A stretch of DNA of 64,000 nt from Candidatus Borrarchaeum weybense (GCA_019057385.1 JAHQJS010000003.1:64001-128000), one strand, 5' to 3'. Counted from the stretch's first letter, positions 1-62,799 are shown. The notes: generated by a model not told the origin, from the sequence alone. Made by a program: numbers and translations.

Positions 1-6
1 GGCGTT

Positions 7-705
7 TTGAAGTTTAAGTATCTAGAAAAAGAGAATGTCAATAATCTGTTTAAACACAATTTTGCACTTCTTCTTTATACACTTGAATCAGGAGCAAATA
101 ATACCGAGTTCATATACATTAAATTGGATTATGGAACTATTACTGATAAGAAGGCTACAGATATTTTAAAAGTTGGTTACAAAAAGGTTTTAGGAGAATT
201 AAAAGAAGATTTAGCGAAATTTAAAATATATGAAGAAAGTAAACAAACACCTTTTGAATATGTAATGGTTCTGCTTTGGACACAGATATTCCCTGAGATA
301 ATCAAAAAAAGTCGTGTAGAGAAGATAATCGAATGGAAAGACAGGAAGGAACACATATTCGAAGTAAAATTAGATGAGTTAATTGAATATCTACATAAAA
401 TGTATACATTGCCATCTTTGAGTGCAACTGACAAAAAGCAATTTACAACCAAGATAATACAGAAAGCCATGACTATGTTTTCAAAGGTTAAAATTAAAAG
501 TGAAAGAACTAGAAAACTCGAACCTTTGGTTACGTATGGTGAAAAAGACGGTTCTATGGTATTTAGAGTGGTTTATAAAAAACTTCGGGAGAAGAAAGAA
601 TTGGACTTCATTCTTAAGTCGATTTATTTGGAACAAGGTGAAATTGAAGACAAGGAAACTCAAAGAGAATTAATTAATTATCCACGATTAGATACATGGT
701 TTTAA
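7..705 (+). CDS. Hypothetical protein, probably 5'-truncated by the window edge; lies upstream of cas7-like gene
   Basis: 232-aa ORF at the window start; no recognisable motif. Confidence 0.6.
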   Translation: MKFKYLEKENVNNLFKHNFALLLYTLESGANNTEFIYIKLDYGTITDKKATDILKVGYKKVLGELKEDLAKFKIYEESKQTPFEYVMVLLWTQIFPEIIKKSRVEKIIEWKDRKEHIFEVKLDELIEYLHKMYTLPSLSATDKKQFTTKIIQKAMTMFSKVKIKSERTRKLEPLVTYGEKDGSMVFRVVYKKLREKKELDFILKSIYLEQGEIEDKETQRELINYPRLDTWF

Positions 706-936: not shown

Positions 937-1758
937 ATGAGAAAAACAAAAAAACTGATGATGATTCATGCCTATACTCCCATTGCAAAACCGATCAACA
1001 CCTCTGTTCAAAAAAATTCAACCATGCTGTTGTTAGGTCAAATTCCCTACGAAAACGGGTCAAAAATATTCACTACTAAGCTTTATTATATCAAAGGATT
1101 ACGTGGAATGCTAAGACATGCCTGTATGAGCCTTGCTCAGGATTGTAGTATCGAGGTGTGTCATACCAGCGAAAAAACTGAACTCAAAGACGGTACAAAG
1201 GTGACTCCCTCAGGGTTTCATCCACTGGGTGAATGTGAACCTCCATGCATCCTCAAAAGAATTTTTGGTACATTTCGCGAGGAGTCCTCAATATCTGTCT
1301 TGTCAGATCCTATAGCTTCTATTAAGCACAAAGAATTTACCACTGAAGTTCCTGTGCAAAAGGTACATATCGCTAGCGAATATAGAATAGCGAAATCGTT
1401 CACGGGTATACCTATTCAGGACTTCAAGGAATCGTATTTCTCAGGGTATTTTAGTTTCTGTATTGATGTAACTGAATTAACTGACTATGAAATCAAGTTT
1501 CTCATGGAATCTCTACTCTACATTGAAACACTTGGTGCTGGTAAGCGTTCGGGTTATGGACGTATCAAAATTATTAGTTTCGAGTTTCAGAAGGTTGAAA
1601 TTACCAGAAAGATCGACCGCGAAAATGGAAGTTATAAAGTTGTTGAGAATGAGTCGATAACGCCCTTAGAACTCGATGATATCGAGAGTTGGAGGGATTC
1701 AATACCTTCATGGACACAAGGCACGCAAGATGGTATGCTACCTGTTCTTAACGAGTAG
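937..1758 (+). CDS. Cas7-like RAMP protein (copy 1)
   Basis: RAMP hallmarks: IKGLRGMLRH, Cys cluster with C..IFG, C-terminal G-rich loop LGAGKRSGYGRI; 42 of the first 60 aa identical to 29174..29983. Confidence 0.8.
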   Translation: MRKTKKLMMIHAYTPIAKPINTSVQKNSTMLLLGQIPYENGSKIFTTKLYYIKGLRGMLRHACMSLAQDCSIEVCHTSEKTELKDGTKVTPSGFHPLGECEPPCILKRIFGTFREESSISVLSDPIASIKHKEFTTEVPVQKVHIASEYRIAKSFTGIPIQDFKESYFSGYFSFCIDVTELTDYEIKFLMESLLYIETLGAGKRSGYGRIKIISFEFQKVEITRKIDRENGSYKVVENESITPLELDDIESWRDSIPSWTQGTQDGMLPVLNE

Positions 1759-1843
1759 CACGTTCTTGTGCATGAGACTGCTCATCTATAAAGGTCTGAC
1801 GCCTTTGATGAGGAGGGATGACTCGCAGGGGACGATAAATGTC
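1759..1843 (+). ncRNA. Conserved structured RNA scaffold, copy 1 (candidate guide-RNA scaffold; full unit with hairpins ~1736-1932)
   Basis: ACGTTCTTGTGCATGAGACTG...GGTCTGACGCCT...ATGACTCGCAGGGGACGATAAATGTC; homologous to 27913-28000 and 29025-29111, with compensatory stem changes. Confidence 0.75.
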
Positions 1844-1899
1844 GTAAACATGTTTATGAGTTTACTAAGTCTATCGACTAACCTTGCAAAGCCTCTCTT

Positions 1900-1932
1900 A
1901 AGCGATGGCAAGTTAAACGCTTGTCATCGCTT
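1900..1932 (+). terminator. Hairpin closing the scaffold+guide unit
   Basis: AAGCGATGGCAAG-ttaaacg-CTTGTCATCGCTT, a 13-bp stem (one G-U) followed by T-rich sequence. Confidence 0.55.
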
Positions 1933-2037
1933 CCATTTTATCCTATTGTTTCTTCTATACTTCTTCAGAAAAAGTTAAGAAGTCTAATATAAAAGTAAGA
2001 GTTAAGATAAACGAATGAAAGTGAAGTTTAGATTTTT

Positions 2038-2982
2038 ATGCTAACTCTATCGACTAACCTTGCAACATTACAACTTAAGAATCCTGTTATGTTAGCTGCT
2101 GGAGTTCTCGGTATTTCGGGACCAGTACTTAAACGGGTAGCGAATGCCGGTGCGGGTGCGGTTGTCACAAAATCTATCGGTCCTGAGCCCAGAGAAGGTT
2201 ACAATAATCCAACAGTCGTTCCTTTAAATGAATTTAGTTGTTTGAATGCTGTTGGGCTTTCAAACCCTGGGTATTTAGAGTTTTCCAAAGAAATAATTTT
2301 GGCAAAACAAGAAAACGTTCCAATAATTGTTAGTATATTTGGCGCAGATATTGATGAATTTTGTACAATTGCGAAGAAAATGGAAAAGAGTGGTGCTGAT
2401 GCACTTGAACTTAACCTTTCATGTCCTCATGGAGGAAAATATGGTGCATCTATCGGACAGGATCCACAATTATCAGGTGAAATTGTATACGCCGTAAAAA
2501 ATACCGTGCAGATCCCTGTTTTTATTAAACTCACACCAAACGTGACTGATCTGATTCCTATTGCAAAAAGTGCTGAAAATAATGGTGCCGATGCTATTAC
2601 TGCAATCAACACAGTACGCGCTATGTGCATAGACATTGAAACTGGGCAGCCCTTATTATCAAACGCGTTTGGAGGGCTTTCTGGGCCTGCAATAAAACCA
2701 ATCGCAATCAAACATATTTATGATCTCTATAAAGAAGTAGGGATCCCTCTTATCGGTGTGGGTGGTATTGTTTCTTGGGAAGATGCAATAGAATTCTTTC
2801 TTGCTGGAGCTACTGCAATTCAAGTAGGGACTGGGCTTCTGCGGACATCATTCCTAGACATGTTTAATGAATTAACCGAAGGAATTCTAAGTTATCTCAG
2901 AAGAAAAGGCTATACTCGTTTAGAAGAAATCATTGGACTTACTCATAGACTTAAATCTTATAGGGGATCTTTACACGAGTAA
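2038..2982 (+). CDS. pyrD: Dihydroorotate dehydrogenase family 1B, catalytic subunit
   Basis: LKNPVMLAAG, NAVGLSNPG, ELNLSCPH, GGLSGPAIKP motifs. Confidence 0.95.
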   Translation: MLTLSTNLATLQLKNPVMLAAGVLGISGPVLKRVANAGAGAVVTKSIGPEPREGYNNPTVVPLNEFSCLNAVGLSNPGYLEFSKEIILAKQENVPIIVSIFGADIDEFCTIAKKMEKSGADALELNLSCPHGGKYGASIGQDPQLSGEIVYAVKNTVQIPVFIKLTPNVTDLIPIAKSAENNGADAITAINTVRAMCIDIETGQPLLSNAFGGLSGPAIKPIAIKHIYDLYKEVGIPLIGVGGIVSWEDAIEFFLAGATAIQVGTGLLRTSFLDMFNELTEGILSYLRRKGYTRLEEIIGLTHRLKSYRGSLHE

Positions 2983-4329: not shown

Positions 4330-7300
4330 ATGGATTTTAAAAGCGAAATGCAATTTTTTTTCAATTTGCGTGACCTAACAGCACGAAAAGGGAAAATACA
4401 TAATATACTCTCTCAATTAGAAAAAATGCAACAAAGGAACGATCCAGTCATCAGTTTAAACATGGCTGAAGCACTTATTGAAAATTGCTTATTAATTGAC
4501 AACGATGAAGATCGTCTACAACATTACAACCGAGCACTTGAACTAGTTCAGATTGCACGTCTTATTTTGAAAGAAAAAAGCCAGACGAGGCTGCTTCTAC
4601 GATCATACCATCTTGAATGCTTTATAAAGTACCATACCATGAAATACAGAGATGAAGAAGCTTCTATTCTCGACATCTTTAATTTGGGTGGGAAAATCAT
4701 CAAAAGAGTAACACAGGCCAAAACAAACGATCCATATACGGAATATGATGACTACTGTTCTTTAGGCTGTGTTTGGCGTGCCTACGGACTCATGTCGCAA
4801 CTTATCCATAAATTTCAGAAATTAAATGTTGAACAAAGACGCGATATGTTAGAGAACGCTAGAGCATTGACACATAAAGCTGTAGATGCGAGTAACAGTA
4901 CAAATAACAGAGATGCAAACGTTTTGTCAGCTTATATTTTTGCTTTTGTCGAAACGTCACAAATGGTTCTACGTGGTGATAAAGCTACTACTGAAAAAGA
5001 TTTTATTAAAATTATAGGCCTTTACGATGTCTTGTTTGAGGCTGCTCACTCGTATGGCTCAATCGAGTTCGAATATTTGGCTTTATTAAACCATACACGG
5101 TTAAATTTATCACGCTATGCCTACACAATAGGGACAAATGAGGAAAAAAGAGAGTTACTCCATGATATATTGAATGATTGTAAGAAACTAGAAGAATACA
5201 ATAACTTAATTCGAATGCCACACTTCCTGTTTTATTATTATACCGTGCGAACTGAAGCCTACTTAAGTTTCCTTTATTTTGAAGTTTTTAGTGAAAAAGA
5301 ATATAACTATTACGTTAACAAAGCTTTAAAATCTGCAGAAAAACTGAAGTTCGTATACGAATCTAAAGATATGATAAGCGAACGCGATAAAATTGACTTA
5401 CATCATAACCTTATCTTTGTATATATGATGACCGCGTCTTTCGCCACTTCACAAAAAGAAAAACATGAATATTTGAAAAAATGTGAGGAATTACTTCTAG
5501 AAGATGAACAAAGTACAGCTGTCTGGTCACAGAGAGCGTACTCCATTTGGCGTGATCTTTCTTCAATTTACTTGGACCTTGCAAAAGTCGAGCGTAATCA
5601 TATATATTTCGAAAAATGCGTATTCTATGCAAAAAAGGCATACTATTCAGCGCTGGAAACTGAGGTCTTCACAGACGCGTTTTTTGAAGCATATAAAATT
5701 GCCATGATCGCTGAAAGTTTCCAGAAGCATAATTTGTCTATAAAGCATTATAATTTAGCCCTTCAGTTGTTAGCCAAAATAATTCAGGCAGGGAAAGATT
5801 ATCCGTACTATAGAAATTTAGAAACCTATCTATCAGCTCGGTTGCTGGGCGTAAAAGCTAAGGAAGAACATCGTAAAGGTAGTTATATACAAGCTACGAA
5901 CTTATATCGCGAAGCAAGTTCTATTTTGCGACCAAATAAGCTTTATTTATATGAAAGCCTACTGTATAACATTTACGCGTTATTTGAAGATGCGTCTACA
6001 CGTTTTATAGAGGAAAAATATAAGGAAACATTTACCATTCTTTCTAATATTACCTGCTTATTTGATGAAACTGCAAAACACTATGCTGAAGATTATAAAC
6101 CCCAATTTCAGTATTTTATCGATAGACGCGCTTATGATCTACAACTTGATTATTTCGAATCTTCAAAGACTTTTTGCCTTGCTCAGTCGAATATTTTACA
6201 GGCATTAATTTATCGTAGTACTGGAGACAGTGAGAGATCAATAAAGTTGCTAAAGGAAGCCAATACTCTACTCAAACCATTTACAGATCGAAATATTCAC
6301 ATAGCAGGCTATTCTTCATTTGCAAAAGGACTATACGGACTTGAAAAATCCGAACTTAACATAAGAAACGGTGAATATAAACGCGCAGCATCATATCTTG
6401 CAAATGCATCTGATCAATTTGAAACTGCATCAAAAGTGTTAGCATCTGACGAACAACTAAGACAGTTATGTGATGGACTAAAATTCTTTTGTCGGGGATG
6501 GATGAATACTTTAGAAATTATGCGCCGTGACATAGACCATAGCACCACAGAATTGCATACTAATTTTACTCTCGCTAGTCAATCTTTCGTAAATGCAACC
6601 AGATCCTTGAAAATGTTCAAGAAGACGTCCAAAGGAGTTTCTGGATTCGAGAAATTATTGAGTTATATCTATTATTCATTATTATTCCAAAAAACTGATG
6701 ATCTTGCAGAAAAAAGCAAGTTTAAGGATAATATGACTGCAGTGCTAGGTGAGGCACTGCAATATTTTAAAGACGCTGAAGATATGGAACGATATAGGTT
6801 TACAAAAGATATAATCACTACACTACTTCAATTGGAAGATATACGCGAAAACATCTTGAAACCCATTACCATACCATTTACACTATATACACCAATATTT
6901 GACTCTACGACTATAGTCGAGCCCAGTAGCGTAAACATTGCAATATCACTTGATAAGGATCAAGTAGAGGTTAATGACGAAATACAGTACACAATAGAAA
7001 TCAATTCCGATAATTCAGTCTATATGAAACAAATTGATGGTTTGATCCCAAAAAAAGGTGTAAAAGTGGTCTCAAATTCGCAATTGGCAAAGAACGGTAC
7101 GATAGAAATAAATCGCTTTTTATCTCCTGGTAATCCAATAAAAATTGAATTCCAAGTTCAGGCATCCACACCGCTTCATAACAAAGCACATCCACGATTA
7201 TTATATCTCAACACAAAAAACGAGAAATGCCGCGCTTTTACATTGCCTCTTACGTTACAAGTGTACCCCAAAAATGCATTAAAATCTGGCGTGGTATGTA

Positions 7301-8217
7301 CAATCAATGAAAAAATCAATCTAGTGAAGGGTATTTTGAAGGAACTAGGAATCATCCTAGGGGAATTTCCGGTCCTATACCATGACATTAATTCATATCG
7401 CGAAGCTTTAGCAGAGTATTATTTCCGTTATAAAACCGACGAGGGTGGGAAGAAGCACCGTTCAAAAAAGACAGACATTTCCAAGATCCCAATACAACAG
7501 ATGGCTTTTGTAGACCCTCTTGGTGAAGTAAATATCCTTTATGATCTGGAGACATATCTCTATCCGCAATCTATTGCGAATCTTCTGGGCATTATCATAC
7601 ATGAAAAATTCGGTCATGGTTTCTTTCAACAGTATACATCATTAGGGAAAAAATTGCTAGAACTGGAATACCACCAAAAAGGTGTAGAATTACTTATGAA
7701 AGAGCTAGAAAAAATATCAAATAAGTATGCTATGGGGATTCAATGGCTTGCCGTTTCTACATTGATCGTCGATGAAGGGTTCGCAACTTGGCTAGAGTTA
7801 AAGACTTTCGAAAAACTGCTTGAAAAAATATCAGATAAAGATTCACAGTTTATTCAACAGATACATCACGAGATAGAAAGTTTCAGAAAAACGGTATTTG
7901 AAAGCGAAGAACTCAATGTGAAGCATGAGTATTTTGCCTTAAAATATGAGAAGACTGTTATCAATCCTTACGCAGAAGGATACGATTTGTTCTCACAAAT
8001 TGAAGAGAAATACGGCGAAAAGTGCGTACCGAAAGCATTAGAAATCGCTGCAAATGTCCCCTTGACAAAGCGACAGATCTCTCTTATGCCAAATACGATA
8101 AAAAATGATAAAACCTGTGCTGATAAAAGATTAGAAAAAATAGCGTGCTCAGATCTCAAAATAGAGCGAAACAATGTTGATATGTTTGAGAAAGCTGCCA
8201 AGGAATTGTTTTTGTAA
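4330..8217 (+). CDS. Large helical-repeat (TPR-like) protein with beta-sandwich and C-terminal zincin-like domain
   Basis: 1295-aa ORF; alpha-helical A/Y/L-rich repeats, Ig-like segment (ISLDKDQVEVNDEIQYTIEI), HEKFGH and downstream DEGFATWLE. Confidence 0.6.
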   Translation: MDFKSEMQFFFNLRDLTARKGKIHNILSQLEKMQQRNDPVISLNMAEALIENCLLIDNDEDRLQHYNRALELVQIARLILKEKSQTRLLLRSYHLECFIKYHTMKYRDEEASILDIFNLGGKIIKRVTQAKTNDPYTEYDDYCSLGCVWRAYGLMSQLIHKFQKLNVEQRRDMLENARALTHKAVDASNSTNNRDANVLSAYIFAFVETSQMVLRGDKATTEKDFIKIIGLYDVLFEAAHSYGSIEFEYLALLNHTRLNLSRYAYTIGTNEEKRELLHDILNDCKKLEEYNNLIRMPHFLFYYYTVRTEAYLSFLYFEVFSEKEYNYYVNKALKSAEKLKFVYESKDMISERDKIDLHHNLIFVYMMTASFATSQKEKHEYLKKCEELLLEDEQSTAVWSQRAYSIWRDLSSIYLDLAKVERNHIYFEKCVFYAKKAYYSALETEVFTDAFFEAYKIAMIAESFQKHNLSIKHYNLALQLLAKIIQAGKDYPYYRNLETYLSARLLGVKAKEEHRKGSYIQATNLYREASSILRPNKLYLYESLLYNIYALFEDASTRFIEEKYKETFTILSNITCLFDETAKHYAEDYKPQFQYFIDRRAYDLQLDYFESSKTFCLAQSNILQALIYRSTGDSERSIKLLKEANTLLKPFTDRNIHIAGYSSFAKGLYGLEKSELNIRNGEYKRAASYLANASDQFETASKVLASDEQLRQLCDGLKFFCRGWMNTLEIMRRDIDHSTTELHTNFTLASQSFVNATRSLKMFKKTSKGVSGFEKLLSYIYYSLLFQKTDDLAEKSKFKDNMTAVLGEALQYFKDAEDMERYRFTKDIITTLLQLEDIRENILKPITIPFTLYTPIFDSTTIVEPSSVNIAISLDKDQVEVNDEIQYTIEINSDNSVYMKQIDGLIPKKGVKVVSNSQLAKNGTIEINRFLSPGNPIKIEFQVQASTPLHNKAHPRLLYLNTKNEKCRAFTLPLTLQVYPKNALKSGVVCTINEKINLVKGILKELGIILGEFPVLYHDINSYREALAEYYFRYKTDEGGKKHRSKKTDISKIPIQQMAFVDPLGEVNILYDLETYLYPQSIANLLGIIIHEKFGHGFFQQYTSLGKKLLELEYHQKGVELLMKELEKISNKYAMGIQWLAVSTLIVDEGFATWLELKTFEKLLEKISDKDSQFIQQIHHEIESFRKTVFESEELNVKHEYFALKYEKTVINPYAEGYDLFSQIEEKYGEKCVPKALEIAANVPLTKRQISLMPNTIKNDKTCADKRLEKIACSDLKIERNNVDMFEKAAKELFL

Positions 8218-26872: not shown

Positions 26873-26997
26873 TATGAATTAAATCTTATCGTTAGTTCTT
26901 TCATCAATATAAGATAACTTAGTTTGATTCTTACCGTTCCTTTCATAATAGACATCTATTACAGCGAATAGTGTCTATCCACCCACGATAAGAACAT

Positions 26998-27268
26998 GAG
27001 TGGAGGGCCCGCTAGGACGGTTAAGCGGGATACCTACCGCCATATAGGGTGCAGGCCTTGCGTGAACGAAACGATGATTTATTATCAGCGTTCCCGCAGA
27101 ATCGACGGCGTACGGGAGTGCTGGGCTGAAGTCCGTGAAGTGGTCCCGGGGCGAATGCTTAAACCTCCGGGTGCCTCATCTTACCATCAATTCTCACTTA
27201 TATACTGGAGGACCTGCTTTATAAACACCACGCCTCACGCGTTCACTGTGGAACCCCTTGCCCGCGAA
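26998..27268. ncRNA. Unidentified GC-rich structured RNA candidate
   Basis: GC-rich island between convergent genes with stems CCCGCT/AGCGGG, CAGCGTTCCCG/CGGGAGTGCTG, CCCGGGG/CTCCGGG and long-range GTGAACG/CGTTCAC. Confidence 0.5.
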
Positions 27269-27304
27269 AGAATCGTCTATATTTGTCTATAAAATAAATA
27301 ACTG

Positions 27305-27595
27305 TTAATCACCCTCTTGTAACTTTTGTTTGATCACAAAAACTCGTATTTTTTCCTCTGCAATTATAAGTGTATCATTGATGGATTTAATTACAGAATG
27401 AGGAATTAAAATTGTTCCTTTCTCATCGCGCGGAAATTTTTCAATATCTGGATGTTTAGTAGGCTTCACACACACCGCTAATAGGTGGCCATCTCGCGAA
27501 TTAATTATGAAATCAACTACCTTTCCCATAGCAGAACCTTTTTCATCAGTTACAGAAATACCAACTAAGTCCCGGATATCGATGATTTCCGACAT
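27305..27595 (-). CDS. PRC-barrel domain protein
   Basis: DLVGISVTDEKGSAMGKVVDFII...ILIPHSVIKSINDTLII. Confidence 0.85.
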   Translation of the reverse strand: MSEIIDIRDLVGISVTDEKGSAMGKVVDFIINSRDGHLLAVCVKPTKHPDIEKFPRDEKGTILIPHSVIKSINDTLIIAEEKIRVFVIKQKLQEGD

Positions 27596-27912
27596 TTTTC
27601 ATCCCATCAGACCTTGCATGAGTCGGTCTATGTTAAATCAATATTTTTTGCTATTAATATCATCTGCTTCGAGTTATAAATTAGTCAAGTCATATTGACA
27701 GAACCTTTTCAAAAAGCAAAAATGAGAGTAGAATTGGAAAATTCAAAATTCGATTCAATAAATCTCGAATGAAAAGTGAAAACTAAAGAACGCTGTGCAA
27801 TTATCTTCGTTTAAATCATACAAAAGTCTATCATAATGCAGGAAATAGGAGGGAATAATCCCTCCTTATCTAATATTTACAGGAATGCCGATTAAGTCGC
27901 GGATATTTTTTT

Positions 27913-28000
27913 GACATTTTTCGTCCCCTGCGAGTCATTCATTCCCAACAAGTGAGGCGTCGGACCTCTAATTTGGTTCAGTCTCATGCACAAGAACGTG
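27913..28000 (-). ncRNA. Conserved structured RNA scaffold, copy 2 (full unit ~27847-28023)
   Basis: Reverse complement CACGTTCTTGTGCATGAGACTGAACCAAATTAGAGGTCCGACGCCTCACTTGTTGGGAATGAATGACTCGCAGGGGACGAAAAATGTC. Confidence 0.75.
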
Positions 28001-28091
28001 TCCCCCGTGATATACGAAGAACATTCCGCCTTGTAACTCATTAAACCTCTTGAAAAGAGTCTATATAAACACCGCGATTCAAAACAAAGAT

Positions 28092-28919
28092 TCATTCTTG
28101 CCATGTATACAAACCACTCTTCAAGTCATCAAGATAGAGATTTACCATAAGGAGTAGGTGATTTTTTAAAGATGAAAAGCCAAATTTTAGCGCTTCGCTG
28201 ATCTTATCAAACGCTTGACATTTTCGAATATAAGTATAAAGAGCATAAGGGGAATATTGACGCCTTTCTATCTCTATTTTTAATACATCGAAATCAATTT
28301 TTTCTAATTCTGTCACACGATAACGAGAGGACGCTGACCATCTAAATTTTCGAGAAATCATTGCAGATAGTCGGTCATAATGTTGTAATAAATAAAGCCA
28401 AAGAAAATCTTTTTCATCTATATCATAATTGTGATGATTCTTTGCAAGTTTGAAGACATCTTCGTCAGCTATATCAACATCAGTATAAATTTTACTTGGA
28501 TGTCGATCAGTGCCTACAAAATCATGCAGGAGCATTGCTATAATTAACTTTTCCTGCATATCTGAGAGTTTAGGAAGTTTCTTACGAATCTTAATTCTTC
28601 TTGTAGTATAGAGAGGCTTTTTCTTGAGTTTTTTGAGAGAAGTCCAAAAGATTCGTCCCATCCCCTCACATGTATAACTTCCAACACTATCAATAGCAAG
28701 TGCTTCTTCAAGTTTATGTTCTGAAACGATAAACTCAATATTACCAAACCACGCCCTAAAGGTCATTGGCGCACGTCTTTGTCCTACCGTTAATTTTCCG
28801 AATACCCTGGGACGACCTTTTATGGTCATCGCTCCAACGTCGGTAACTCCAAAATGTCTACGCTTTGAAACAATAGGAGTTTTTGTATAACCAATTAATT
28901 TAAAGTATTTCTGTGGCAT
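28092..28919 (-). CDS. Cas5-like RAMP fused to HD nuclease domain
   Basis: N-terminal FKLIGYTKTPI strand and G-loop VGSYTCEGMGRI; C-terminal LLHDF...NHH...YDRLSA HD motifs as in Cas10/Cas3 HD domains. Confidence 0.68.
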   Translation of the reverse strand: MPQKYFKLIGYTKTPIVSKRRHFGVTDVGAMTIKGRPRVFGKLTVGQRRAPMTFRAWFGNIEFIVSEHKLEEALAIDSVGSYTCEGMGRIFWTSLKKLKKKPLYTTRRIKIRKKLPKLSDMQEKLIIAMLLHDFVGTDRHPSKIYTDVDIADEDVFKLAKNHHNYDIDEKDFLWLYLLQHYDRLSAMISRKFRWSASSRYRVTELEKIDFDVLKIEIERRQYSPYALYTYIRKCQAFDKISEALKFGFSSLKNHLLLMVNLYLDDLKSGLYTWQE

Positions 28920-29024
28920 TTTATTCCCTCTTATAAGATTTTACCTCCTCTTTGAACAAAAGAGAGGAGATATAAACCTTGCCAAAGTAAACACGTTTGC
29001 AACTGTTGTTTGTAAAGTGGGTAT

Positions 29025-29111
29025 GACATTTTTCGTTCCTTGCGAGTCATCCGTCCCCAACAATTGAGGCGTCGGACCTCTAAGCTGGTTCAGTCTCATG
29101 CACAAGAACGT
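29025..29111 (-). ncRNA. Conserved structured RNA scaffold, copy 3 (full unit ~28945-29134)
   Basis: Reverse complement ACGTTCTTGTGCATGAGACTGAACCAGCTTAGAGGTCCGACGCCTCAATTGTTGGGGACGGATGACTCGCAAGGAACGAAAAATGTC. Confidence 0.75.
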
Positions 29112-29173
29112 ATCACTCACATCAGTAAGTGATAAACCGTAATGAGATGAGAAAAAAAGTTGAAATAAATGTG

Positions 29174-29983
29174 TCACACAGCCACCTTCTCATCCTGTTT
29201 ACTCATAGTATTCAAAGAAGTTCTCCAATCCTCGATTTTACTTAGAGAAAGCGGAATTTCAGTGGTTTCTTCTATAATTTTATAGTTTCCTTCGCTATCC
29301 TCTTCGACTCTTCGAAAAGTCTCAACCTTCTGAAGAGCAATATTAAGGATTTTGACGCAACCATATCCACTTGACCGTCCTGCCCCAAGAATTTCTACGT
29401 AGAGCATTGCTTCTATAAGAAACTTGATTTCAACATCAGTTAGATTAGTGACATCAATTTGAAAGGAAAAAAATCCACTGAAATAACTCTCACGAAAGTC
29501 TTGGATGGGAGTACCATCATAGGCAAGCGCTATTCTGTTTTCACTAGAGATGTGGACATTTTGAACTGGCACTATTGTTATAAAATCTTTGTGTTTAATC
29601 GAGGCAATAGGGTCTGCTGCGACAACAATAGAGGACTTTTCACGGAAGGTGCCAAAGATTGTTCTGAGAATACAGGGAGGATCGCATGTACCAAGCGCAT
29701 GAAATCCTTGCGGAAGAACACTTTTACCATCTTTAAGTTCAGTTTTTTCAGAACTATGACATACTTCGATGTTGCAGTCTTGAGCAAGTTCCATACAGGC
29801 ATGTCTTAACATCCCTCGGATACCTTTAATGTAATAAAATTTAGTATTGAACGTTTTTTCTCCATTCACATAAGGAAATTTCCCTAACAAGAGCATGCTA
29901 GAATTTTTCTGAATCGAGGCATTGATAGGCTTTGCTATGGGTGTAAAGGCGTGAACAACTATCTGGTTTTTGATTTTTCTCAT
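29174..29983 (-). CDS. Cas7-like RAMP protein (copy 2)
   Basis: IKGIRGMLRH, CDPPCILRTIFG, G-loop LGAGRSSGYGCV. Confidence 0.8.
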   Translation of the reverse strand: MRKIKNQIVVHAFTPIAKPINASIQKNSSMLLLGKFPYVNGEKTFNTKFYYIKGIRGMLRHACMELAQDCNIEVCHSSEKTELKDGKSVLPQGFHALGTCDPPCILRTIFGTFREKSSIVVAADPIASIKHKDFITIVPVQNVHISSENRIALAYDGTPIQDFRESYFSGFFSFQIDVTNLTDVEIKFLIEAMLYVEILGAGRSSGYGCVKILNIALQKVETFRRVEEDSEGNYKIIEETTEIPLSLSKIEDWRTSLNTMSKQDEKVAV

Positions 29984-30326
29984 GTTTCCAACCTCAAATA
30001 TATTTAGTACAAGTACCTATATAAACCTTGCTCAAAATAAACACTTTTTCTACTCTTGTTAGTAAAATGGGGTTTAAAATGACTTCCTTTTTAGAAATAA
30101 AGTATTTTAAACAGGTTTTATGTGAAAAACCATTGTATGTTTAGAACCTGATTTATAAATCACAATGTAACATTCAATTTACATCATCATTTTTTTAAAA
30201 GAATAGTTGTTTGATTTAACAAAATTAAGTTTCTTCGGGAATTCAAAAAGAGTACATTGATGGTATCAACTAAACTAAAAATCGTTCGAAAAAAATAATT
30301 GTTCCATTGATGGTTGCTAATAAAAA

Positions 30327-33300
30327 TTAGGGCAATAGATCTTTTACTGTAACTGGAGGACCCTTTTTCTGTGGTTTATAGATGCCTTCTAAATGTTGGA
30401 ATCTTTCAAACATTAAGTGGAGAGTTTCCTTATCTGGAGCGTAAATAAAGGGGATGAATCGCTTATTTTCTAGCAAAAAATCCTTGAGTTGTACTGCACA
30501 CTGCCTTAAAGCCTCCATTACTGTCATCTTCTGTTCAAGATAGTATATTTCTTGATTGAGTATATCATCAACTAGTCTCTCAACTTTGTAGTGTCCATTC
30601 CATGTTAGGTGATAGAATTGTTCGTGTTCAAGCGTTTTACGCTTCTTGAAATCAGCTTTTGTAAATTCACCATACAAACATGCTAAAATTAGGGTGAGCC
30701 TGAACAAGGGAATAAACATTTCTCGAAAATCAAAGATAGTGCCTAGAAAGGAGCGTTGGGTTTTTTTAAAGTGCAGTATCAGTTCATCCGGTACCCAAGA
30801 AAATCCTACTTCAGCGAGTGCTTTTCGACAGTAAAGGTTAAGATGACGATAAACAGCATTGAGTGCAGCACTAAAGGGTGTACGTGCTTTTACTTCTCCT
30901 AAAAGGACAACGGTGGAAATATAGCGTTCTAGGGTACGACTAATGATCTCAAAGTAGGTTCCTCTTAGCAAACGTTTAGGGATTTCCCAGGCAACTCCTT
31001 CAACTAAGCCTTCAAACCCACGGAGGTTGTCAATATTACCCCTCCAATAGAGAAAAGTATATGCTACTCGATCCAGCAATTTAGATAAGAGCTCTTGAGC
31101 ATTTTCAGCAGATAACAACCCCTCTTTTTCAACTTGGAGTACTGAATTGGCTAGACCTATATCTTTACTTATTGTCAGAAGCCATGCTAGCAATTTGCCT
31201 CGTTCTGTTCCTCTGATTCGCTGAGCGGCATATTTCAGTTCGTCGGCTACCTGTTGTTTCTTTGGAGTTAGTTTATTTTGTGCAAAGAAACTACCTTTTG
31301 GTGTATTTGCATCAATGAGTTTCTTGCTATATTTCTTACGAATGTATTGCGATATATCGCCACCTTCAATGATGATATTACGGATAGCACCGACTAAATA
31401 CCGTTTTGTTTCTCTTCCGTCTTTTAGTGTATGAACAAATCGTTTTTTTCTAATATCGAGCCTTTCATTACACTTGACACGGATATTTCGTTTTGGTCTT
31501 CTGATATAGACCTTTGTCTTTTTAACTCTCTGAACATAATTCCCGGGCTTACCTATAAGCAGTTCTAAATTTGTTTGCAATACATCACGATAACCCGGTT
31601 TTATTACAAGTTCACCATTAACGGTCAAATGATAACTGGAATTGCATTCAGGACAGACTGTATATTCCATATATGAGGACGGTAATTCCACAATGCCACG
31701 AGGTTTACAGTTTAAACATGTAATGCTGCCATTTGTTTCTTGCAATATTCTTATTTTACGTTTTTTTAACCTTTGAACATTTTCGTGATGTTCGCATGCA
31801 CTCTTCCTTGGTGTGGCGTAAGGATTTCTTGCTCGTTTTCCTACTTGTTTGTTTAATTTGCAGTTTAACACACAAACATGTGCATGTTTCGATCTTCGAC
31901 GGTCCTTTATAGGGTTTATCTGAATGAACTTACAAGATCCACAGGTGAGCCGAAGATGTTCAGGAATACTTGCGTTCACATCAGCTACATAGATTTTGGG
32001 GCGCCCTCGAAGCTGACCTTGAGAGATAACCTGTATTTGCTCTTGTATTTTTAACTGCTTGATGTGCTTAACTATCGTAGTATAGTGAACATTTTGATTG
32101 TATTGCTTGCGAACCTCTGACAAAATAAAATCGTAAGAAATGATTCCATGTTTTTTAATAATGTTATAAATTGCTTTATGAAGTCCGGGATATGGTTTCG
32201 GTCTTTGCTTTGGATACCAACGTCTCTTTTTAACTTTTTTCGCTTCATTAGCTTTAAGCTCATTATATTTAGCATTTAGTTTAGTTGAGAGTTCTTTAGC
32301 GACTCGTGCTTCTCTCAGGTCTCTTTGTCCCAAAAAGCTATAACTTGCTTCTGCGATCCATGAGGCTGTTTTCTTATGAGATTCAGCATCACCCAGTCGT
32401 ATTTTTGCCTGAATTGCAGCTTCTGTTACTGTAGATCCTTGACTTAGTAACTTAATGAAGGCTGTATACTGTTGGGCGTTATACCGTTTGGTGTTACTTA
32501 GTTCACGCATACATTGCCCAACAAGTTTGACTAATTGTTGGGAAAACTCCTGTTCTGAAGAGGAATGATTTGTGACAAAAAACTTCTTGATCCTTATTGC
32601 AATTTTGATCGGCAGTAAATATTTACTTGCCCAACGACCCTTGTCTGTTGCACAGAACCTTCCTCCATTTTTTCTAACAAAACCTTCCGTGATCAGCGTT
32701 TGAAGGATACCCTGTTTCTTATTTCTTTCATCAGACTCAGGTTTAGCCAATAGATCTCCTTTTAATTGCTGTTTGAAGTCTTTCAATTTGTCATAGGTGA
32801 ATGGTGTGAGAAATAAGCGAAGTTCGCCGTATTTAACCTTGTTTGCAGTGGTTCTTTTCCTGATCCAAATGAAAAATGTTCGAGTTAATCGTTTCAAGTC
32901 GTTCGGCAGGGAACCTTTGTGTGCGTCGAATAGTATTAACAGTAAATGATTTTCATTATTAAGTTGGCATAGTTCCTCTTCTTTGGTCATAAGTGCACTA
33001 TTCATTAGTTCGAACCAGTTCCGTAGCATTGTTTTGTATTGATGAAAGAAATAGTGCCTTTCAAGTTTGCTCAGTAATTGATTCGAGGATACAGAACCCT
33101 TAGCTATTAATGTAAGTACAATATCTGCCATTGAAGAACGTGCTTGGCTTTTAATGCTATGTTCTTTCACTATCAGTTGTCCTTCAACGATTTGTATCTC
33201 CTTTTGTTTCAGAAGTTCTTGGTCGTTTCCAACAAAGATCAAGTCAGCATACCCAATCCTATGATGTCGCGGTCGTGCCGCCCTGCCACTCAGTTGTATA

Positions 33301-34310
33301 AGCAGTTGGGGGCTGAACATTTCAGCATCGTTGATTATCACTCGTTTAATCGGAAAGTTAACCCCCTCTCCGTATTGGATTGTTGAAACAAAGACCTGAA
33401 ATTCGCCATTGTTAAGTCGCCTCATAGCTTCTCGTTGTTCTTTCTTACTGAGTCCTGCGTGACTGTAGCCAACTTTGAGATCGAAACCAGAATTCTTGAG
33501 AAAGATCTGCAATATTTCAGCATATTTCTCAACCTGTTTTCGTGTGTAACAGAAGAGTTGCACGATTTTGATCTGATGTTCATCATTCGAAGGTTGCTCA
33601 AAGGTCTTTTTTATCAATCTAGCGAAAAGAAAAATCTTTTTTCGTTCAATTTGTTCTAATTTATTGCCTGAAATTCCAAAAGTCGACACAATAAGTGTCG
33701 ATCGCCGCTCTTTTGTGTGTATAAGATGAGCATCGAGCCAACTTGCCAGATCTTCAGTATTACCTAATGTAGCCGAGAGATAGATAATTTGCGGACGAGG
33801 ACGCAACCACGCTTTAGCATTAACAATTGCGGTTTCTAGGTGCACGCCCCGCCCTTTTTTGCCTAAATTGTGCAGTTCGTCAACTACCAGCAATCCCACT
33901 TGGTCTAAGAATGGATATTCAAAATGTTTGGCTAGTAGTCCATTAAAGGATTCGTAGGTGATGACGAGAATATCCGCACTTTGAATCTCTTCAGGAGCTG
34001 GTCGATCATCTCCGCTGACCCTGAGGATGGTACATGTGTCTTGATACCACTCTTTGAATCTATCGTACATTTGATCGATTAGACGCTTGGTCGGCTCAAG
34101 GATCACACAGCGCAAACCTTTTCCTAGTATTTTTGTAGACATTATTTGAGCGATCAAGGTTTTTCCCGAAGCTGTGGGAGAGTACAATATCTTATCCTGT
34201 CTTTGCTTCCCAGAAAAACATGCTTCCCATTGAAAATCGTAGAGAGCTTTGATGTCAGCCTGTTCTAATCGTTGACGAATGAATTCGTAGTTAAACCCTC
34301 TTTTTGTCAT
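30327..34310 (-). CDS. SF2 (Ski2/Hel308-like) helicase - wHTH/Zn-finger - Cas1-like integrase fusion
   Basis: SPTASGKT, VVDELH, LSAT, QLSGRAAR; CxxC pairs; C-terminal IDNLRGFEG...PFSAALNAVY...GFSW...LILH...IFDFREMF...FIPF follows the Cas1 catalytic-domain pattern. Confidence 0.8.
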   Translation of the reverse strand: MTKRGFNYEFIRQRLEQADIKALYDFQWEACFSGKQRQDKILYSPTASGKTLIAQIMSTKILGKGLRCVILEPTKRLIDQMYDRFKEWYQDTCTILRVSGDDRPAPEEIQSADILVITYESFNGLLAKHFEYPFLDQVGLLVVDELHNLGKKGRGVHLETAIVNAKAWLRPRPQIIYLSATLGNTEDLASWLDAHLIHTKERRSTLIVSTFGISGNKLEQIERKKIFLFARLIKKTFEQPSNDEHQIKIVQLFCYTRKQVEKYAEILQIFLKNSGFDLKVGYSHAGLSKKEQREAMRRLNNGEFQVFVSTIQYGEGVNFPIKRVIINDAEMFSPQLLIQLSGRAARPRHHRIGYADLIFVGNDQELLKQKEIQIVEGQLIVKEHSIKSQARSSMADIVLTLIAKGSVSSNQLLSKLERHYFFHQYKTMLRNWFELMNSALMTKEEELCQLNNENHLLLILFDAHKGSLPNDLKRLTRTFFIWIRKRTTANKVKYGELRLFLTPFTYDKLKDFKQQLKGDLLAKPESDERNKKQGILQTLITEGFVRKNGGRFCATDKGRWASKYLLPIKIAIRIKKFFVTNHSSSEQEFSQQLVKLVGQCMRELSNTKRYNAQQYTAFIKLLSQGSTVTEAAIQAKIRLGDAESHKKTASWIAEASYSFLGQRDLREARVAKELSTKLNAKYNELKANEAKKVKKRRWYPKQRPKPYPGLHKAIYNIIKKHGIISYDFILSEVRKQYNQNVHYTTIVKHIKQLKIQEQIQVISQGQLRGRPKIYVADVNASIPEHLRLTCGSCKFIQINPIKDRRRSKHAHVCVLNCKLNKQVGKRARNPYATPRKSACEHHENVQRLKKRKIRILQETNGSITCLNCKPRGIVELPSSYMEYTVCPECNSSYHLTVNGELVIKPGYRDVLQTNLELLIGKPGNYVQRVKKTKVYIRRPKRNIRVKCNERLDIRKKRFVHTLKDGRETKRYLVGAIRNIIIEGGDISQYIRKKYSKKLIDANTPKGSFFAQNKLTPKKQQVADELKYAAQRIRGTERGKLLAWLLTISKDIGLANSVLQVEKEGLLSAENAQELLSKLLDRVAYTFLYWRGNIDNLRGFEGLVEGVAWEIPKRLLRGTYFEIISRTLERYISTVVLLGEVKARTPFSAALNAVYRHLNLYCRKALAEVGFSWVPDELILHFKKTQRSFLGTIFDFREMFIPLFRLTLILACLYGEFTKADFKKRKTLEHEQFYHLTWNGHYKVERLVDDILNQEIYYLEQKMTVMEALRQCAVQLKDFLLENKRFIPFIYAPDKETLHLMFERFQHLEGIYKPQKKGPPVTVKDLLP

Positions 34311-34851
34311 AATAATGATCTGCCCCCTCAGCTTCGTCTAATTAGATATTAGCTAAAATTCATTTATAAAGCGGGTAAACTTTCAAATCGATTGCTAGAA
34401 TGTTCTATTCGATAAAAAACAAGTTTGCCTTCGGCATAGTTACCTTCGCTATGTCGCTTCTCAAAAAAAAACCACCGTTGAAGAAGGTAATTAATCCTTC
34501 TCTTCAATGATAGAGGAGGGTTCGATTTTAATCACCTATAGAACATAATGAAATACAGAGGACAAAAAACTACAATAAGACTTATTGCTTCCAAAGTATT
34601 TAAACTCGACAACTCGTGATTTAAGTAGTTAATCAAGAAGGCTAAACTTCTTAGAAAATATGGTAGAAGAATCTTCATCGAAAAAGGTTTTTGAGGGAAA
34701 AGAAAAACATCTGTGACATTGTTCCTACTATAAGTTTGCCGATAAAGTTAAAAAAAAGACTTCGTATAGATATTGTCCAATACTTTGGCACAATAATGTA
34801 ACTCGTGGACTATTTTAATAATATAAGTTCCCTTGTAATCAAACAATTGAA

Positions 34852-35028: not shown

Positions 35029-35117
35029 CTCTTCACTCACGGAACAAATTACTGGTTTTTAATGGGTTAAATATGCGCCTTAATGTTGCAACATAATGTA
35101 TTGTCAATTTTCTCTTA

Positions 35118-35432
35118 GTGAGCTACCTCGTGCTAAAGCTTTGAGGCTTCCTGCTTCTACGACAGACTCGATCCCCTGGCGGGTTACGGAGGTCTTATCT
35201 CCACAGGCTTAACATCCCTACGCCCCGTAGGTACGGTTAACCATCGTGATGCAATCGAAGTATGCATCTTGACTACAAGTGTGCGTGTGATCCCTCCAAT
35301 TGCAGTTGATATCTCGTCATACCAGCTATATAACTCTTAGGGAGACCCCTCGATGCAAGTGATAAAAGTGAACACATATTATTGCAATTCATCACCACGC
35401 TGAAGCTTTGGTGCTTTCTTGCTCAGCTACTC
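35118..35432 (-). mobile_element. Non-autonomous IS200/IS605-family element (no ORF)
   Basis: Both ends and an internal block (CTCCACAGGCTTAACATCCCTACG.CCCGTAGGTAC) near-identical to the tnpB remnant at 62211-62799; subterminal hairpins. Confidence 0.8.
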
Positions 35433-35454
35433 GTAATTTTTCATTAGATTTCTT

Positions 35455-62210: not shown

Positions 62211-62799
62211 GTGAACTACCTCACGCTAAAGCAGTGAGGCTTCCTGCTTCCACGACCGAACTTGCTGTCACATAGGGAATACCATTTAAGTATTCCAGTG
62301 ATACCACAGTAGAGGATTCAGTCTCCACAGGCTTAACATCCCTACGTCCCGTAGGTACAACCACGTGTTGGTTTAATCCTTCGGTCTCGATATTCACACT
62401 GGCATTATGGTCTCTGTCCATCACTAACCCACAGACCTCACAGACATAGACTCGTTCATCCAACCCGATTTCCCGGATATTACCGCAACGCGAACAGGTT
62501 TTGGTAGAAGGAAACCACCGATCCACTTTAATCGCAGTCTAATGGAGTATGCACCTTTACTTCAAGTGTGCGTGTGATCCCTCCTTCGGAATGCGGCTGA
62601 TAGCATGCTCTGAACTGTGACACTACCAAAAGTCTTAGTGTTGGAGGTAGCGATCCCAGCCTTTCACTCGCTAGTCATCTTAGTATAAGAGGCACACCAC
62701 TATTAAAGTATTAGACAGACCCCTTAATGAAAGTGAACATACACACCTACCGCAATTCATCACCAAGCTGAAGCTGTGGTGCTTTCTTGCTTTGTTCAA
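62211..62799 (-). mobile_element. Internally deleted IS200/IS605-family element
   Basis: Subterminal hairpins CCTCACGCTAAAGCAGTGAGG and CACCAAGCTGAAGCTGTGGTG; carries the tnpB 3' end; ends shared with 35118-35432. Confidence 0.85.
62221..62526 (-). pseudogene. tnpB: Truncated TnpB (Zn ribbon and RuvC-III only)
   Basis: FPSTKTCSRCG...YVCEVCGLVMDRDHNASVNI. Confidence 0.88.

What the first reader, a model, noticed from the sequence alone, without database searches (positions are those of the whole stretch)
1736..1932. Novel structured RNA family in three copies, one after every RAMP gene
Seen: three units (1736-1932 +, 27847-28023 -, 28945-29134 -) share one architecture. First, a 5' hairpin of variable sequence (TGCTAC/GTAGCA; TGTTCTTCGT/ACGGGGGACA; TATCACTTA/TGAGTGATA). 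Second, an ~85-nt conserved core in which CGTTCTT.TGC..GAG pairs with CTCGCA.GG.ACG and an apical stem covaries (AAGG/CCTT vs GAGG/CCTC) around a conserved T(C/T)GACG-containing loop. Third, a 46-56 nt variable segment. Fourth, a 3' hairpin of unrelated sequence. Conserved structure with changing sequence points to a functional RNA. It is not a CRISPR repeat, and I do not recognise it as a known ribozyme or riboswitch. Scaffold-then-guide order resembles TnpB omega-RNA logic (analogy only).
Basis: partly seen in the sequence, partly recalled or inferred. Interest (0 to 1): 0.88.

Follow-up and report, generated by a model that had tools for sequence, protein, structure and literature searches.

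The report
Structured RNA ending Asgard RAMP cassettes
A roughly 125-base structured element, absent from Rfam and from the papers I could search, closes the downstream edge of CRISPR-derived but array-less "ARAMP" gene cassettes in Borr-type Asgard archaea and reads out into the neighbouring host DNA, so it is the best candidate for the RNA partner this puzzling system was thought to lack.

Summary
The three units are real. They belong to one family, R, about 125 nt long. It has 25-28 copies in this genome, 3-31 in each of the five other Borrarchaeia genomes held, and 58 on 46 metagenome contigs. It has no Rfam match.

Covariation supports a variable 5' hairpin and a long irregular hairpin on the gene strand only (92.6% of cells paired against 38-52% when slid; 19 pairs changed on both sides).

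After the internal copy lies a duplicated promoter. After terminal copies lies host DNA, because the 3' end of R is the right-hand border of the inserted cassette. That cassette carries a helicase-Cas1 fusion (Cas1 fold confirmed), a Cas7-like RAMP and a RAMP-HD gene, which is the known ARAMP.

At both terminal copies here, a 31-38-nt stub of the host gene abuts R. A hairpin, new DNA and a restored gene copy follow.

Solo copies outnumber the RAMP genes found in four of the five relatives.

Best reading (0.4): R is the RNA scaffold of the ARAMP proteins, extended by flank sequence as in omega-RNA. Expression is untested.

Earlier agents of this scan met the same RNA on other pieces of this genome.

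The parts
1725..1848 (+). R copy 1. It overlaps the last codons of the Cas7-like RAMP gene and is the terminal copy of the pyrD-locus cassette.
   Evidence: CM R1 118.8 bits; alignments A1-A4.
27908..28034 (-). R copy 2, after the RAMP-HD gene. It is the terminal copy, and its 3' end is the right border of the inserted cassette.
   Evidence: CM 139.2 bits; empty site in G004.
29020..29145 (-). R copy 3, the internal copy between the RAMP and RAMP-HD genes.
   Evidence: CM 127.7 bits.
28062..28069 (-). TATA-like box (TTTATATA) 28-35 nt upstream of R copy 2.
   Evidence: Read. TATA-like motifs peak at -35 to -30 (52 motif hits among 77 upstream regions). It is a consensus match only.
937..1758 (+). 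Cas7-like RAMP gene (273 aa).
   Evidence: Pfam RAMPs 1.3e-6; PADLOC Csm3 1.8e-7.
29174..29983 (-). Cas7-like RAMP gene (269 aa), 64% identical to the first.
28092..28919 (-). RAMP-HD-like gene (275 aa). It has an N-terminal G-rich loop (EGMG) and invariant LLHDF, NHHNY and YYD motifs.
   Evidence: Alignment A6. No Pfam or PDB sequence hit. The AF2 model is unusable.
30327..34310 (-). Helicase-Cas1 fusion (1327 aa).
   Evidence: DEAD/Helicase_C domains. A model of the C-terminal 450 aa matches casposase and Cas1 structures at E 1e-10; all 50 listed hits are Cas1.
34482..34503 (-). Left end of the inserted cassette, which begins with a hairpin.
   Evidence: Junction against the G004 empty site.
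34504..34535 (-). Stranded native start of the PRC-barrel gene (GTG plus 10 codons), left behind upstream of the cassette.
27875..27906 (-). T' of copy 2: native PRC-barrel codons 11-21 abutting the 3' end of R (30/31 identical to G004).
27596..27874 (-). X of copy 2: a hairpin, then DNA not found in the relatives, ending in a stretch that resembles the last ~20 nt of R and supplies the new ATG.
27305..27595 (-). PRC-barrel host gene. T'' (27550-27579) is the diverged second copy of T'.
   Evidence: Pfam PRC 2.2e-9. Identity to G004 is 82% in the first 45 nt and about 95% after.
1852..1889 (+). T' of copy 1: native pyrD start region (-10 to +28), 36/38 identical to G004.
1890..2037 (+). X of copy 1: a hairpin plus AT-rich DNA unrelated to the native pyrD upstream region.
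2038..2982 (+). pyrD, with a new ATG. T'' (2041-2065) is 24/25 identical to T'.
28966..29017 (-). Promoter and leader after the internal R. It is duplicated at 30018-30071 (-), upstream of the RAMP gene, and ends in TTTATAT.
   Evidence: score 30.5 against a null maximum of 12.

Best explanation
R is a self-contained, roughly 125-nt structured non-coding RNA gene that belongs to ARAMP cassettes (Cas7-like RAMP, RAMP-HD, usually helicase-Cas1) of Borrarchaeia.

Shown:
- R has a conserved fold on the gene strand.
- A TATA-like box lies about 30 nt upstream.
- R lies after cassette genes.
- The last copy forms the right-hand border of the inserted DNA, so a transcript running on would carry the adjoining host sequence.

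Inferred:
- The RAMP proteins assemble on R as a scaffold, and the flank-templated 3' extension addresses the complex to the cassette's own insertion site. This is omega-RNA-like logic with class-1 CRISPR parts.
- The Cas1 fusion does the DNA joining.
- The repeated arrangement R, a 30-45-nt host stub, a hairpin, new DNA, then a second copy of the stub marks activity of the system at that address.
For: - Family size and spread: 25-28 copies in the own genome. R is present in all 6 Borrarchaeia genomes held and in 0 of 55 other genomes of the phylum sampled. It occurs 58 times on 46 metagenome contigs.
- Structure, set 1: 92.6% of cells paired against 82.1% shuffled and 38-52% slid; 19 pairs and 272 cells changed on both sides; 0 of 500 shuffles reach the observed value.
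- Structure, independent metagenome set: 93.9% paired against 42-57% slid; 11 pairs changed on both sides.
- Stem P2 covaries: CCATC/GATGG, CTATC/GATAG, CCGTC/GACGG, CTCATC/GATGAG.
- Strand specificity: 19% of paired cells are G-U, so the opposite strand would pair in only 73% of cells.
- Not coding: the two conserved blocks are out of phase in 24 of 64 copies, and the hairpin changes are non-conservative at the peptide level.
- Link to ARAMP genes.
- Cas1 fold.
- Border and flank.
- T'-X-T'' architecture at 4 own loci (p=0.003 each), at 1 G004 locus and on 4 metagenome contigs.
- Xenolog-like 5' gene segments that end at T''.
- Papers held describe ARAMP as array-less and enigmatic and name no RNA (PMC8730458, PMC12669027).
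Against: - There is no expression or binding data of any kind.
- Solo copies outnumber the RAMP genes found with this query. In G004 there are 20 R against 4 RAMP genes. In G005 there are 31 R and no RAMP gene found, but that MAG is only 80% complete.
- A divergent RAMP + HD pair in this genome has no R nearby.
- The internal copy is followed by a promoter, not a guide.
- The flank 'guide' has the sense of the host mRNA, so it could pair only with DNA or antisense RNA.
- The tail of R (GGTGATA) looks like a ribosome-binding site, and 16 of 78 copies have a long ORF starting within 25 nt. That fits a leader function equally well.
- Covariation cannot tell RNA from folded single-stranded DNA.
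- T' length is not fixed: it is 78 nt at one locus.
Confidence: 0.4

Rival explanations
1. R acts mainly as DNA. It is the cis-acting end of Cas1-mobilised cassettes: a leader-like anchor or an attC-like folded single strand. The integrase recognises it, and the fold is selected at the DNA level.
For: - R follows each cassette gene and ends the insertion.
- Left ends are not conserved, as in one-ended or cassette systems.
- A Cas1 or casposase fold is encoded next door.
- Direct duplications of 22-38 bp flank small R-bearing inserts, and flank duplications start next to R. This is the geometry of leader, repeat, new insert, repeat.
- Solo R units are polymorphic between genomes.
Against: - The two clean full-cassette junctions (PRC-barrel, ftsY) have no target duplication.
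- Many G-T wobble positions are conserved.
- A TATA-like box sits at a fixed distance, also in solo copies.
- RAMP proteins are RNA binders by family.
Confidence: 0.25
2. R is an outward-reading promoter plus structured 5' leader. It keeps, or regulates, expression of whatever gene lies downstream of the insertion, possibly as a RAMP-binding regulatory site.
For: - A TATA-like box lies about 30 nt upstream.
- The GGTGATA tail stands 7-8 nt before host start codons at several loci, and native sites carry GGTGA there too.
- 16 of 78 copies have an ORF start within 25 nt.
- One R directly precedes a GIY-YIG ORF.
- Insertions replaced native promoters.
Against: - Most copies (43 of 78) have no co-oriented long ORF within 130 nt.
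- Copies 1 and 2 here are followed by terminator-like hairpins before the host gene.
- A plain promoter does not need a 125-nt fold with compensatory changes.
Confidence: 0.2
3. R is a selfish MITE-like repeat with no role for ARAMP. It is carried along or trapped next to these genes.
For: R has many solo copies and shows insertion polymorphism between G004 and G000.
Against: - Two thirds of classifiable metagenomic copies sit directly after ARAMP genes, at fixed spacing.
- Diverged copies keep the fold through compensatory changes.
- I saw no terminal inverted repeats.
Confidence: 0.1
4. R encodes a small protein (one frame is open, giving the peptide ...TFLCMR...).
For: One frame is open through most copies. 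G005 copies give a roughly 35-aa ORF with a recurring start and stop. Some copies run in frame into the host gene.
Against: - The 3' conserved block is read in different frames in 37% of copies.
- The conserved bases include third codon positions.
- The hairpin changes are coupled at the RNA level and radical at the peptide level.
Confidence: 0.03

Closest known systems
ARAMP (Asgard RAMP) modules, Makarova et al. 2020, as summarised in PMC8730458 and PMC12669027
   Same: Same gene set (Cas7-like RAMP, RAMP with HD nuclease motifs, a distinct Cas1), an Asgard host and no CRISPR array.
   Different: The papers I could read call it array-less and enigmatic and name no RNA. The original paper was not available to me. 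Here a conserved structured element follows the genes and bounds the insertion.
Omega-RNA / reRNA of TnpB and IscB (OMEGA, IS200/IS605)
   Same: A structured scaffold is encoded at the element's end, and the bases that follow are flanking host DNA.
   Different: There is no RuvC nuclease, no TnpA and no Rfam match (HEARO included). The proteins are class-1 RAMPs plus Cas1. R also occurs inside cassettes and solo, and appears to have its own promoter.
CRISPR leader-repeat unit and Cas1 adaptation
   Same: A Cas1 integrase lies next door. A repeated unit occurs after the genes, and relatives have short tandem R, ~40 nt, R runs. The flank next to R is duplicated around new DNA, as a repeat is duplicated around a new spacer.
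   Different: The unit is about 125 nt and structured. Genes lie between copies. There is no regular array and no cas2. The inserted DNA is 65-580 bp.
Integron attC sites
   Same: A strand-specific folded element follows each cassette gene, and structure is better kept than sequence in the stems.
   Different: No tyrosine recombinase or attI was seen. The core sequence is highly conserved, and a TATA-like box and an SD-like tail are present.
Homing spacers of CRISPR-associated transposons
   Same: A guide-like segment next to the element matches a conserved host gene beside the insertion.
   Different: Here the segment is continuous with the left flank, so it looks like native DNA. No Tn7 genes are present, and distances vary.

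Membership tests
ARAMP module | Cas7-like RAMP protein | tested here: met
   Pfam PF03787 1.3e-6 and 2.9e-6; PADLOC Csm3.
ARAMP module | Second RAMP (Cas5-like) with a nuclease, here HD | tested here: inconclusive
   The G-rich loop and the HD, HH and D motifs are invariant in 10 paralogues. The Atlas lead to HD scores 0.78. There is no Pfam or PDB hit, and the AF2 model has pLDDT 37.
ARAMP module | Distinct Cas1 homologue | tested here: met
   Foldseek hits to casposase 6opm and Cas1 4n06 at E 1e-10. Sequence searches were blank.
ARAMP module | No CRISPR array; Asgard host | tested here: met
   TRF and the repeat scans find no array. A congener is named Ca. Borrarchaeum yapensis.
CRISPR repeat / crRNA | 25-40-nt direct repeats regularly spaced by unique spacers of similar size | tested here: not met
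   The units are about 125 nt and lie 1.1 kb apart with genes between them.
TnpB/IscB omega-RNA | Scaffold at the transposon end with flank-derived guide | tested here: met
   This is met for position only. Host homology starts 7-12 nt after the conserved GT(C/G). Guide use is untested.
TnpB/IscB omega-RNA | Partner RuvC nuclease and match to the known RNA models | tested here: not met
   Pfam hits on the ORFs scanned are RAMP, helicase and host-enzyme domains; none is TnpB or IscB. No Rfam match at the gathering threshold or at E<=10.
Integron attC | Tyrosine recombinase IntI with attI and cassette array | not tested
   No such gene appeared among the ORFs scanned, but I made no dedicated search.
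Box C/D sRNA (K-turn) | C (RUGAUGA) and D (CUGA) boxes forming a K-turn with guide regions between them | tested here: inconclusive
   The loops hold AUGAGA, CUGA and GAUGAC. No Rfam C/D family matches R. The geometry was not modelled.
MITE | Short non-coding multicopy element with terminal inverted repeats and target duplications | tested here: inconclusive
   Solo copies are multicopy. Duplications of 22-38 bp occur at two loci but none at the full cassettes. Inverted terminal repeats were not searched for systematically.

The most novel reading that the evidence does not exclude
ARAMP cassettes are an R-anchored, Cas1-driven DNA insertion system. The R end serves both as a leader-like DNA anchor and as the scaffold of a flank-templated guide RNA. 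The helicase-Cas1 joins DNA roughly one guide length from the R end and duplicates the flank as a pseudo-repeat. That would explain R, host stub, new DNA, second stub, and the xenolog-like gene fronts. It would be a missing link between casposon-type integration, CRISPR adaptation and RNA-guided homing.
Probability: 0.15. Interest if true: 0.95.

Novelty: new variant of a known kind. Interest (0 to 1): 0.78.

Why it matters
ARAMP is described in the papers I could read as an array-less CRISPR derivative whose mechanism is enigmatic, because RAMP proteins normally need an RNA and Cas1 normally needs an array. A conserved structured RNA element that follows the genes, bounds the inserted cassette and reads into host DNA makes that question testable. 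One can ask whether the RAMPs bind it, whether the flank serves as a guide, and whether the Cas1 fusion acts at its end. If it is a guide scaffold, it would be a class-1-derived counterpart of omega-RNA. That would bear on how CRISPR arrays and RNA-guided mobile elements arose.

Tried and rejected
- RNA evidence: no RNA holder was listed for window 27800-30000, so expression stays untested and read laying was not used.
- Rfam: nothing at the gathering threshold on the whole window, and nothing overlapping R in sense at E<=10.
- Coding reading: rejected.
- 'X is the native pyrD upstream region': rejected. There is no similarity to the G004, G001 or G003 upstream regions, which are about 85% alike among themselves.
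- Target duplication around whole cassettes: none within 12 kb upstream of any terminal copy in this genome.
- Conserved left end: none beyond about 100 nt of promoter.
- The ORF at 1-705 is not a Cas1 fragment. The pyrD-locus cassette carries three unknown ORFs instead.
- Pfam and PDB sequence searches of the Cas1 region were blank. Only the fold search worked.
- The AF2 model of the RAMP-HD protein was too poor to use.
- The divergent RAMP + HD pair on another contig has no R by the model with filters off.
- A fixed 'ruler' for T' was softened. My last script had a self-overlap bug, so only the L148 row is valid. In one search the query stopped at 50 nt, so the T' ends for L134 and L135 are lower bounds.
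- The original ARAMP paper (PMC7307682) was not held.

Full report
**Observation.** The three units exist at the stated places. A 20-base core word occurs exactly three times in the window against none expected. The copies align over about 125 nt. A covariance model built from 23 copies of the own genome (R1) scores them at 119-139 bits. With filters off it finds no fourth copy in the window. Rfam gives nothing at gathering thresholds on the whole window. It also gives nothing meaningful at E<=10 around the copies. Tandem-repeat and direct-repeat scans show no CRISPR array.

**Size and spread of the family.**
- The own genome (4.18 Mb, 8 contigs) holds 22 copies by BLAST, 28 by nhmmer and 25 by the model.
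- All five other genomes of the class held have it, with 3 to 31 copies (E <= 1e-5). None of 55 genomes from other families of the phylum did, under the stricter filters.
- One congener is named Candidatus Borrarchaeum yapensis, so the host is an Asgard archaeon of the Borrarchaeia.
- An exact 19-mer scan of metagenome contigs returned 46 contigs with 58 model hits.
- Earlier agents of this scan met the same RNA on other pieces of this genome.

**Structure.** Then comes a hairpin, P0, whose sequence varies freely. Then comes a long irregular hairpin with four features:
- an almost invariant outer stem (CGUUCUU with GGGGACG, rich in U-G pairs);
- conserved internal loops (AUGAGAC and GGAUGAC);
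- a variable middle stem, P2;
- an apical stem, P3 (GAGG/CCUC), around a UCCNACG loop.

On 78 distinct copies from six genomes:
- 92.6% of cells pair, against 82.1% after shuffling and 38-52% when partners are slid.
- 19 of 29 pairs and 272 cells change on both sides, and none of 500 shuffles reaches this.
- P0 has 9 of 10 pairs with compensatory changes.
- P2 shows CCATC/GATGG, CTATC/GATAG, CCGTC/GACGG and CTCATC/GATGAG.

An independent metagenome set gives 93.9% paired against 42-57% slid. These alignments were fitted to the model, which favours the structure somewhat. The slid controls and the per-sequence folds argue that the signal is real. Single-sequence folding energies are unremarkable (z = -0.01 to -2.8). 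The case therefore rests on covariation.

Nineteen percent of paired cells are G-U, and on the opposite strand only 73% would pair. The fold therefore belongs to the gene strand.

**Not a coding element.** One frame is open through many copies. Three things argue against coding:
- The distance between the two conserved blocks is out of phase in 24 of 64 copies.
- Conservation includes third codon positions.
- The P0 changes are coupled as base pairs but radical as amino acids.

**Gene context.** Copy 1 follows a Cas7-like RAMP gene and copy 3 follows its 64% paralogue. Copy 2 follows a different 275-aa protein. That protein has a G-rich loop and invariant HD-type motifs but no similarity to the Cas7-like protein. 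Upstream lies a 1327-aa helicase. Its C-terminal 450 residues, modelled from six paralogues (pLDDT 70), match casposase and Cas1 structures at E 1e-10. All 50 listed hits are Cas1. This gene set is ARAMP, which the papers I could read describe as an array-less, type III-derived and enigmatic system (PMC8730458, PMC12669027).

The genome has nine RAMP + RAMP-HD pairs of this type, with R after each gene. It also has one RAMP without a partner (the pyrD locus) and orphan R copies. Six of the RAMP-bearing loci carry the helicase-Cas1. On metagenome contigs, 24 copies lie after RAMP-HD, 9 after RAMP, 17 are solo and 9 are at contig edges.

**What follows R.** The sequence after the internal copies is not a guide. 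In six modules, this window's included, the next ~50 nt are 80-97% identical to the stretch from -90 to -35 upstream of the RAMP gene. They end in a TATA box. This is a duplicated promoter and leader for the RAMP-HD gene.

For terminal copies the next bases are host DNA. Empty sites in the congener G004 show this.
- **PRC-barrel locus.** The insertion runs from window 34503 to about 27907. The native start of the PRC-barrel gene (GTG plus 10 codons) is stranded on the left. The 3' end of R abuts codons 11-21 with no duplication and no loss.
- **pyrD locus.** The cassette starts about 3.2 kb before the window and ends at about 1851. It replaced 117 nt of native intergenic DNA, and R abuts the native pyrD start (36/38 identical to G004).
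- **Relatives.** In about 20 loci of relatives, homology to this genome begins 7-12 nt after the conserved GT(C/G).

**A recurrent architecture next to R.** At both terminal copies here the host stub (T', 31-38 nt) is followed by four things in order:
- a hairpin;
- DNA not found in the relatives (X, 148-279 nt);
- a new ATG;
- a second copy of the stub (T''), continuous with the intact host gene.

The same arrangement holds at the ftsY locus and one more locus of this genome (empirical p=0.003 each against 300 random genome windows).

At one G004 locus the stub is present three times. The arrangement also appears on four metagenome contigs.

At ftsY the native promoter and codons 1-38 remain left of the cassette. 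The working gene has a front of about 150 nt that is only 64% identical to G004, and identity then jumps to 92% exactly after T''. The PRC-barrel gene shows the same trend (82% then about 95%). The X of the PRC-barrel locus ends in a stretch that resembles the last ~20 nt of R.

T' ends 36-46 nt after GT(C/G) in five loci, but it is 78 nt long in one. Any ruler is therefore loose. Two small R-bearing inserts in G004 are flanked by 22- and 38-bp duplications. The full cassettes are not. I cannot settle how this arises. It is the strongest hint that something acts at the address defined by R plus its flank.

**Other features.**
- TATA-like motifs cluster 30-35 nt upstream of the element (52 motif hits in that interval among 77 upstream regions), solo copies included.
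- The tail GGTGATA stands 7-8 nt before host start codons at several loci, and 16 of 78 copies have a long ORF starting within 25 nt.
- Solo copies outnumber the RAMP genes found with this query. G004 has 20 R against 4 RAMP genes. G005 has 31 R and none found. G001 and G003 also have R but no RAMP hit. All three of the latter genomes are incomplete.
- A divergent RAMP + HD pair in this genome has no R.

**Reading.** I take R to be a small RNA gene that is part of ARAMP. Most likely it is the scaffold on which the RAMP proteins assemble. The adjoining flank would be copied into its 3' extension, and Cas1 would act on DNA at that address (confidence 0.4).

Three rivals remain open:
- a DNA-level role as the cassette's integrase site (0.25);
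- an outward promoter and leader (0.2);
- a selfish repeat (0.1).

No RNA run was listed for this sequence, so expression is untested.

**Novelty.** The gene module is known. The RNA element, its position as the cassette border and the stub, insert, stub architecture are not in Rfam or in the papers I could read. The original ARAMP paper was not available to me.

Noticed in passing
window 35100-35440 and 62211-62791: A dispersed repeat of about 320 nt with at least 40 copies in the genome, including ~160-nt deletion forms. It has no Rfam match and looks like a MITE family unrelated to R.
   Followed up: partly
window 26934-27313: About 380 nt present here but absent from the syntenic G004 and G002 sites. 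Parts of it recur on many contigs of the relatives, so it is another small mobile repeat.
   Followed up: no
window 4330-8217 (+): A 1295-aa ORF with no Pfam, NCBIfam or PADLOC hit lies between pyrD and its electron-transfer subunit gene. A 59% paralogue lies on another contig.
   Followed up: no
L115:2091-5706 (own contig C3:61090-64705; window 1-705 is its end): The pyrD-locus cassette carries three ORFs of unknown family (451, 353 and 376 aa) instead of helicase-Cas1. They are single-copy in the genome.
   Followed up: partly
L115:548-1801 (-), just left of the pyrD-locus cassette: The divergently read Nop5/56 gene lost its native start codon at the insertion. It now starts at an ATG supplied by the cassette's left end.
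   Followed up: partly
L114:4631-6275 (own contig C5:80630-82274): A divergent RAMP + HD-like gene pair (39% and 34% identity) has overlapping genes and no R nearby.
   Followed up: partly
solo and terminal R copies of the genus, about 50 nt upstream of R (e.g. L026, L031, L051): A conserved SD-like GGAGGTG plus ATG opens a hydrophobic peptide (MLQIMFIVF...). It runs into R in the open frame and at some loci in frame into the host gene. It overlaps the TATA-like box.
   Followed up: partly
L016:~100-390 (-) (own contig C4, directly after the R at 904041) and its counterparts in L027 and L047: A 96-aa ORF with a GIY-YIG-like start (VFYVYV...YTGYT, by eye only) begins 3 nt after an R and is itself followed by another R in L016, like a third cassette.
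   Followed up: no
L025 and L048 (relative G001); four R copies within 1.7 kb on G004 contig C9: In L025 and L048, tandem R copies are separated by only about 40 nt that hold a TATA-like box, forming a miniature array of 125-nt units. G004:C9 holds four R copies spaced 225-1100 nt start to start.
   Followed up: no
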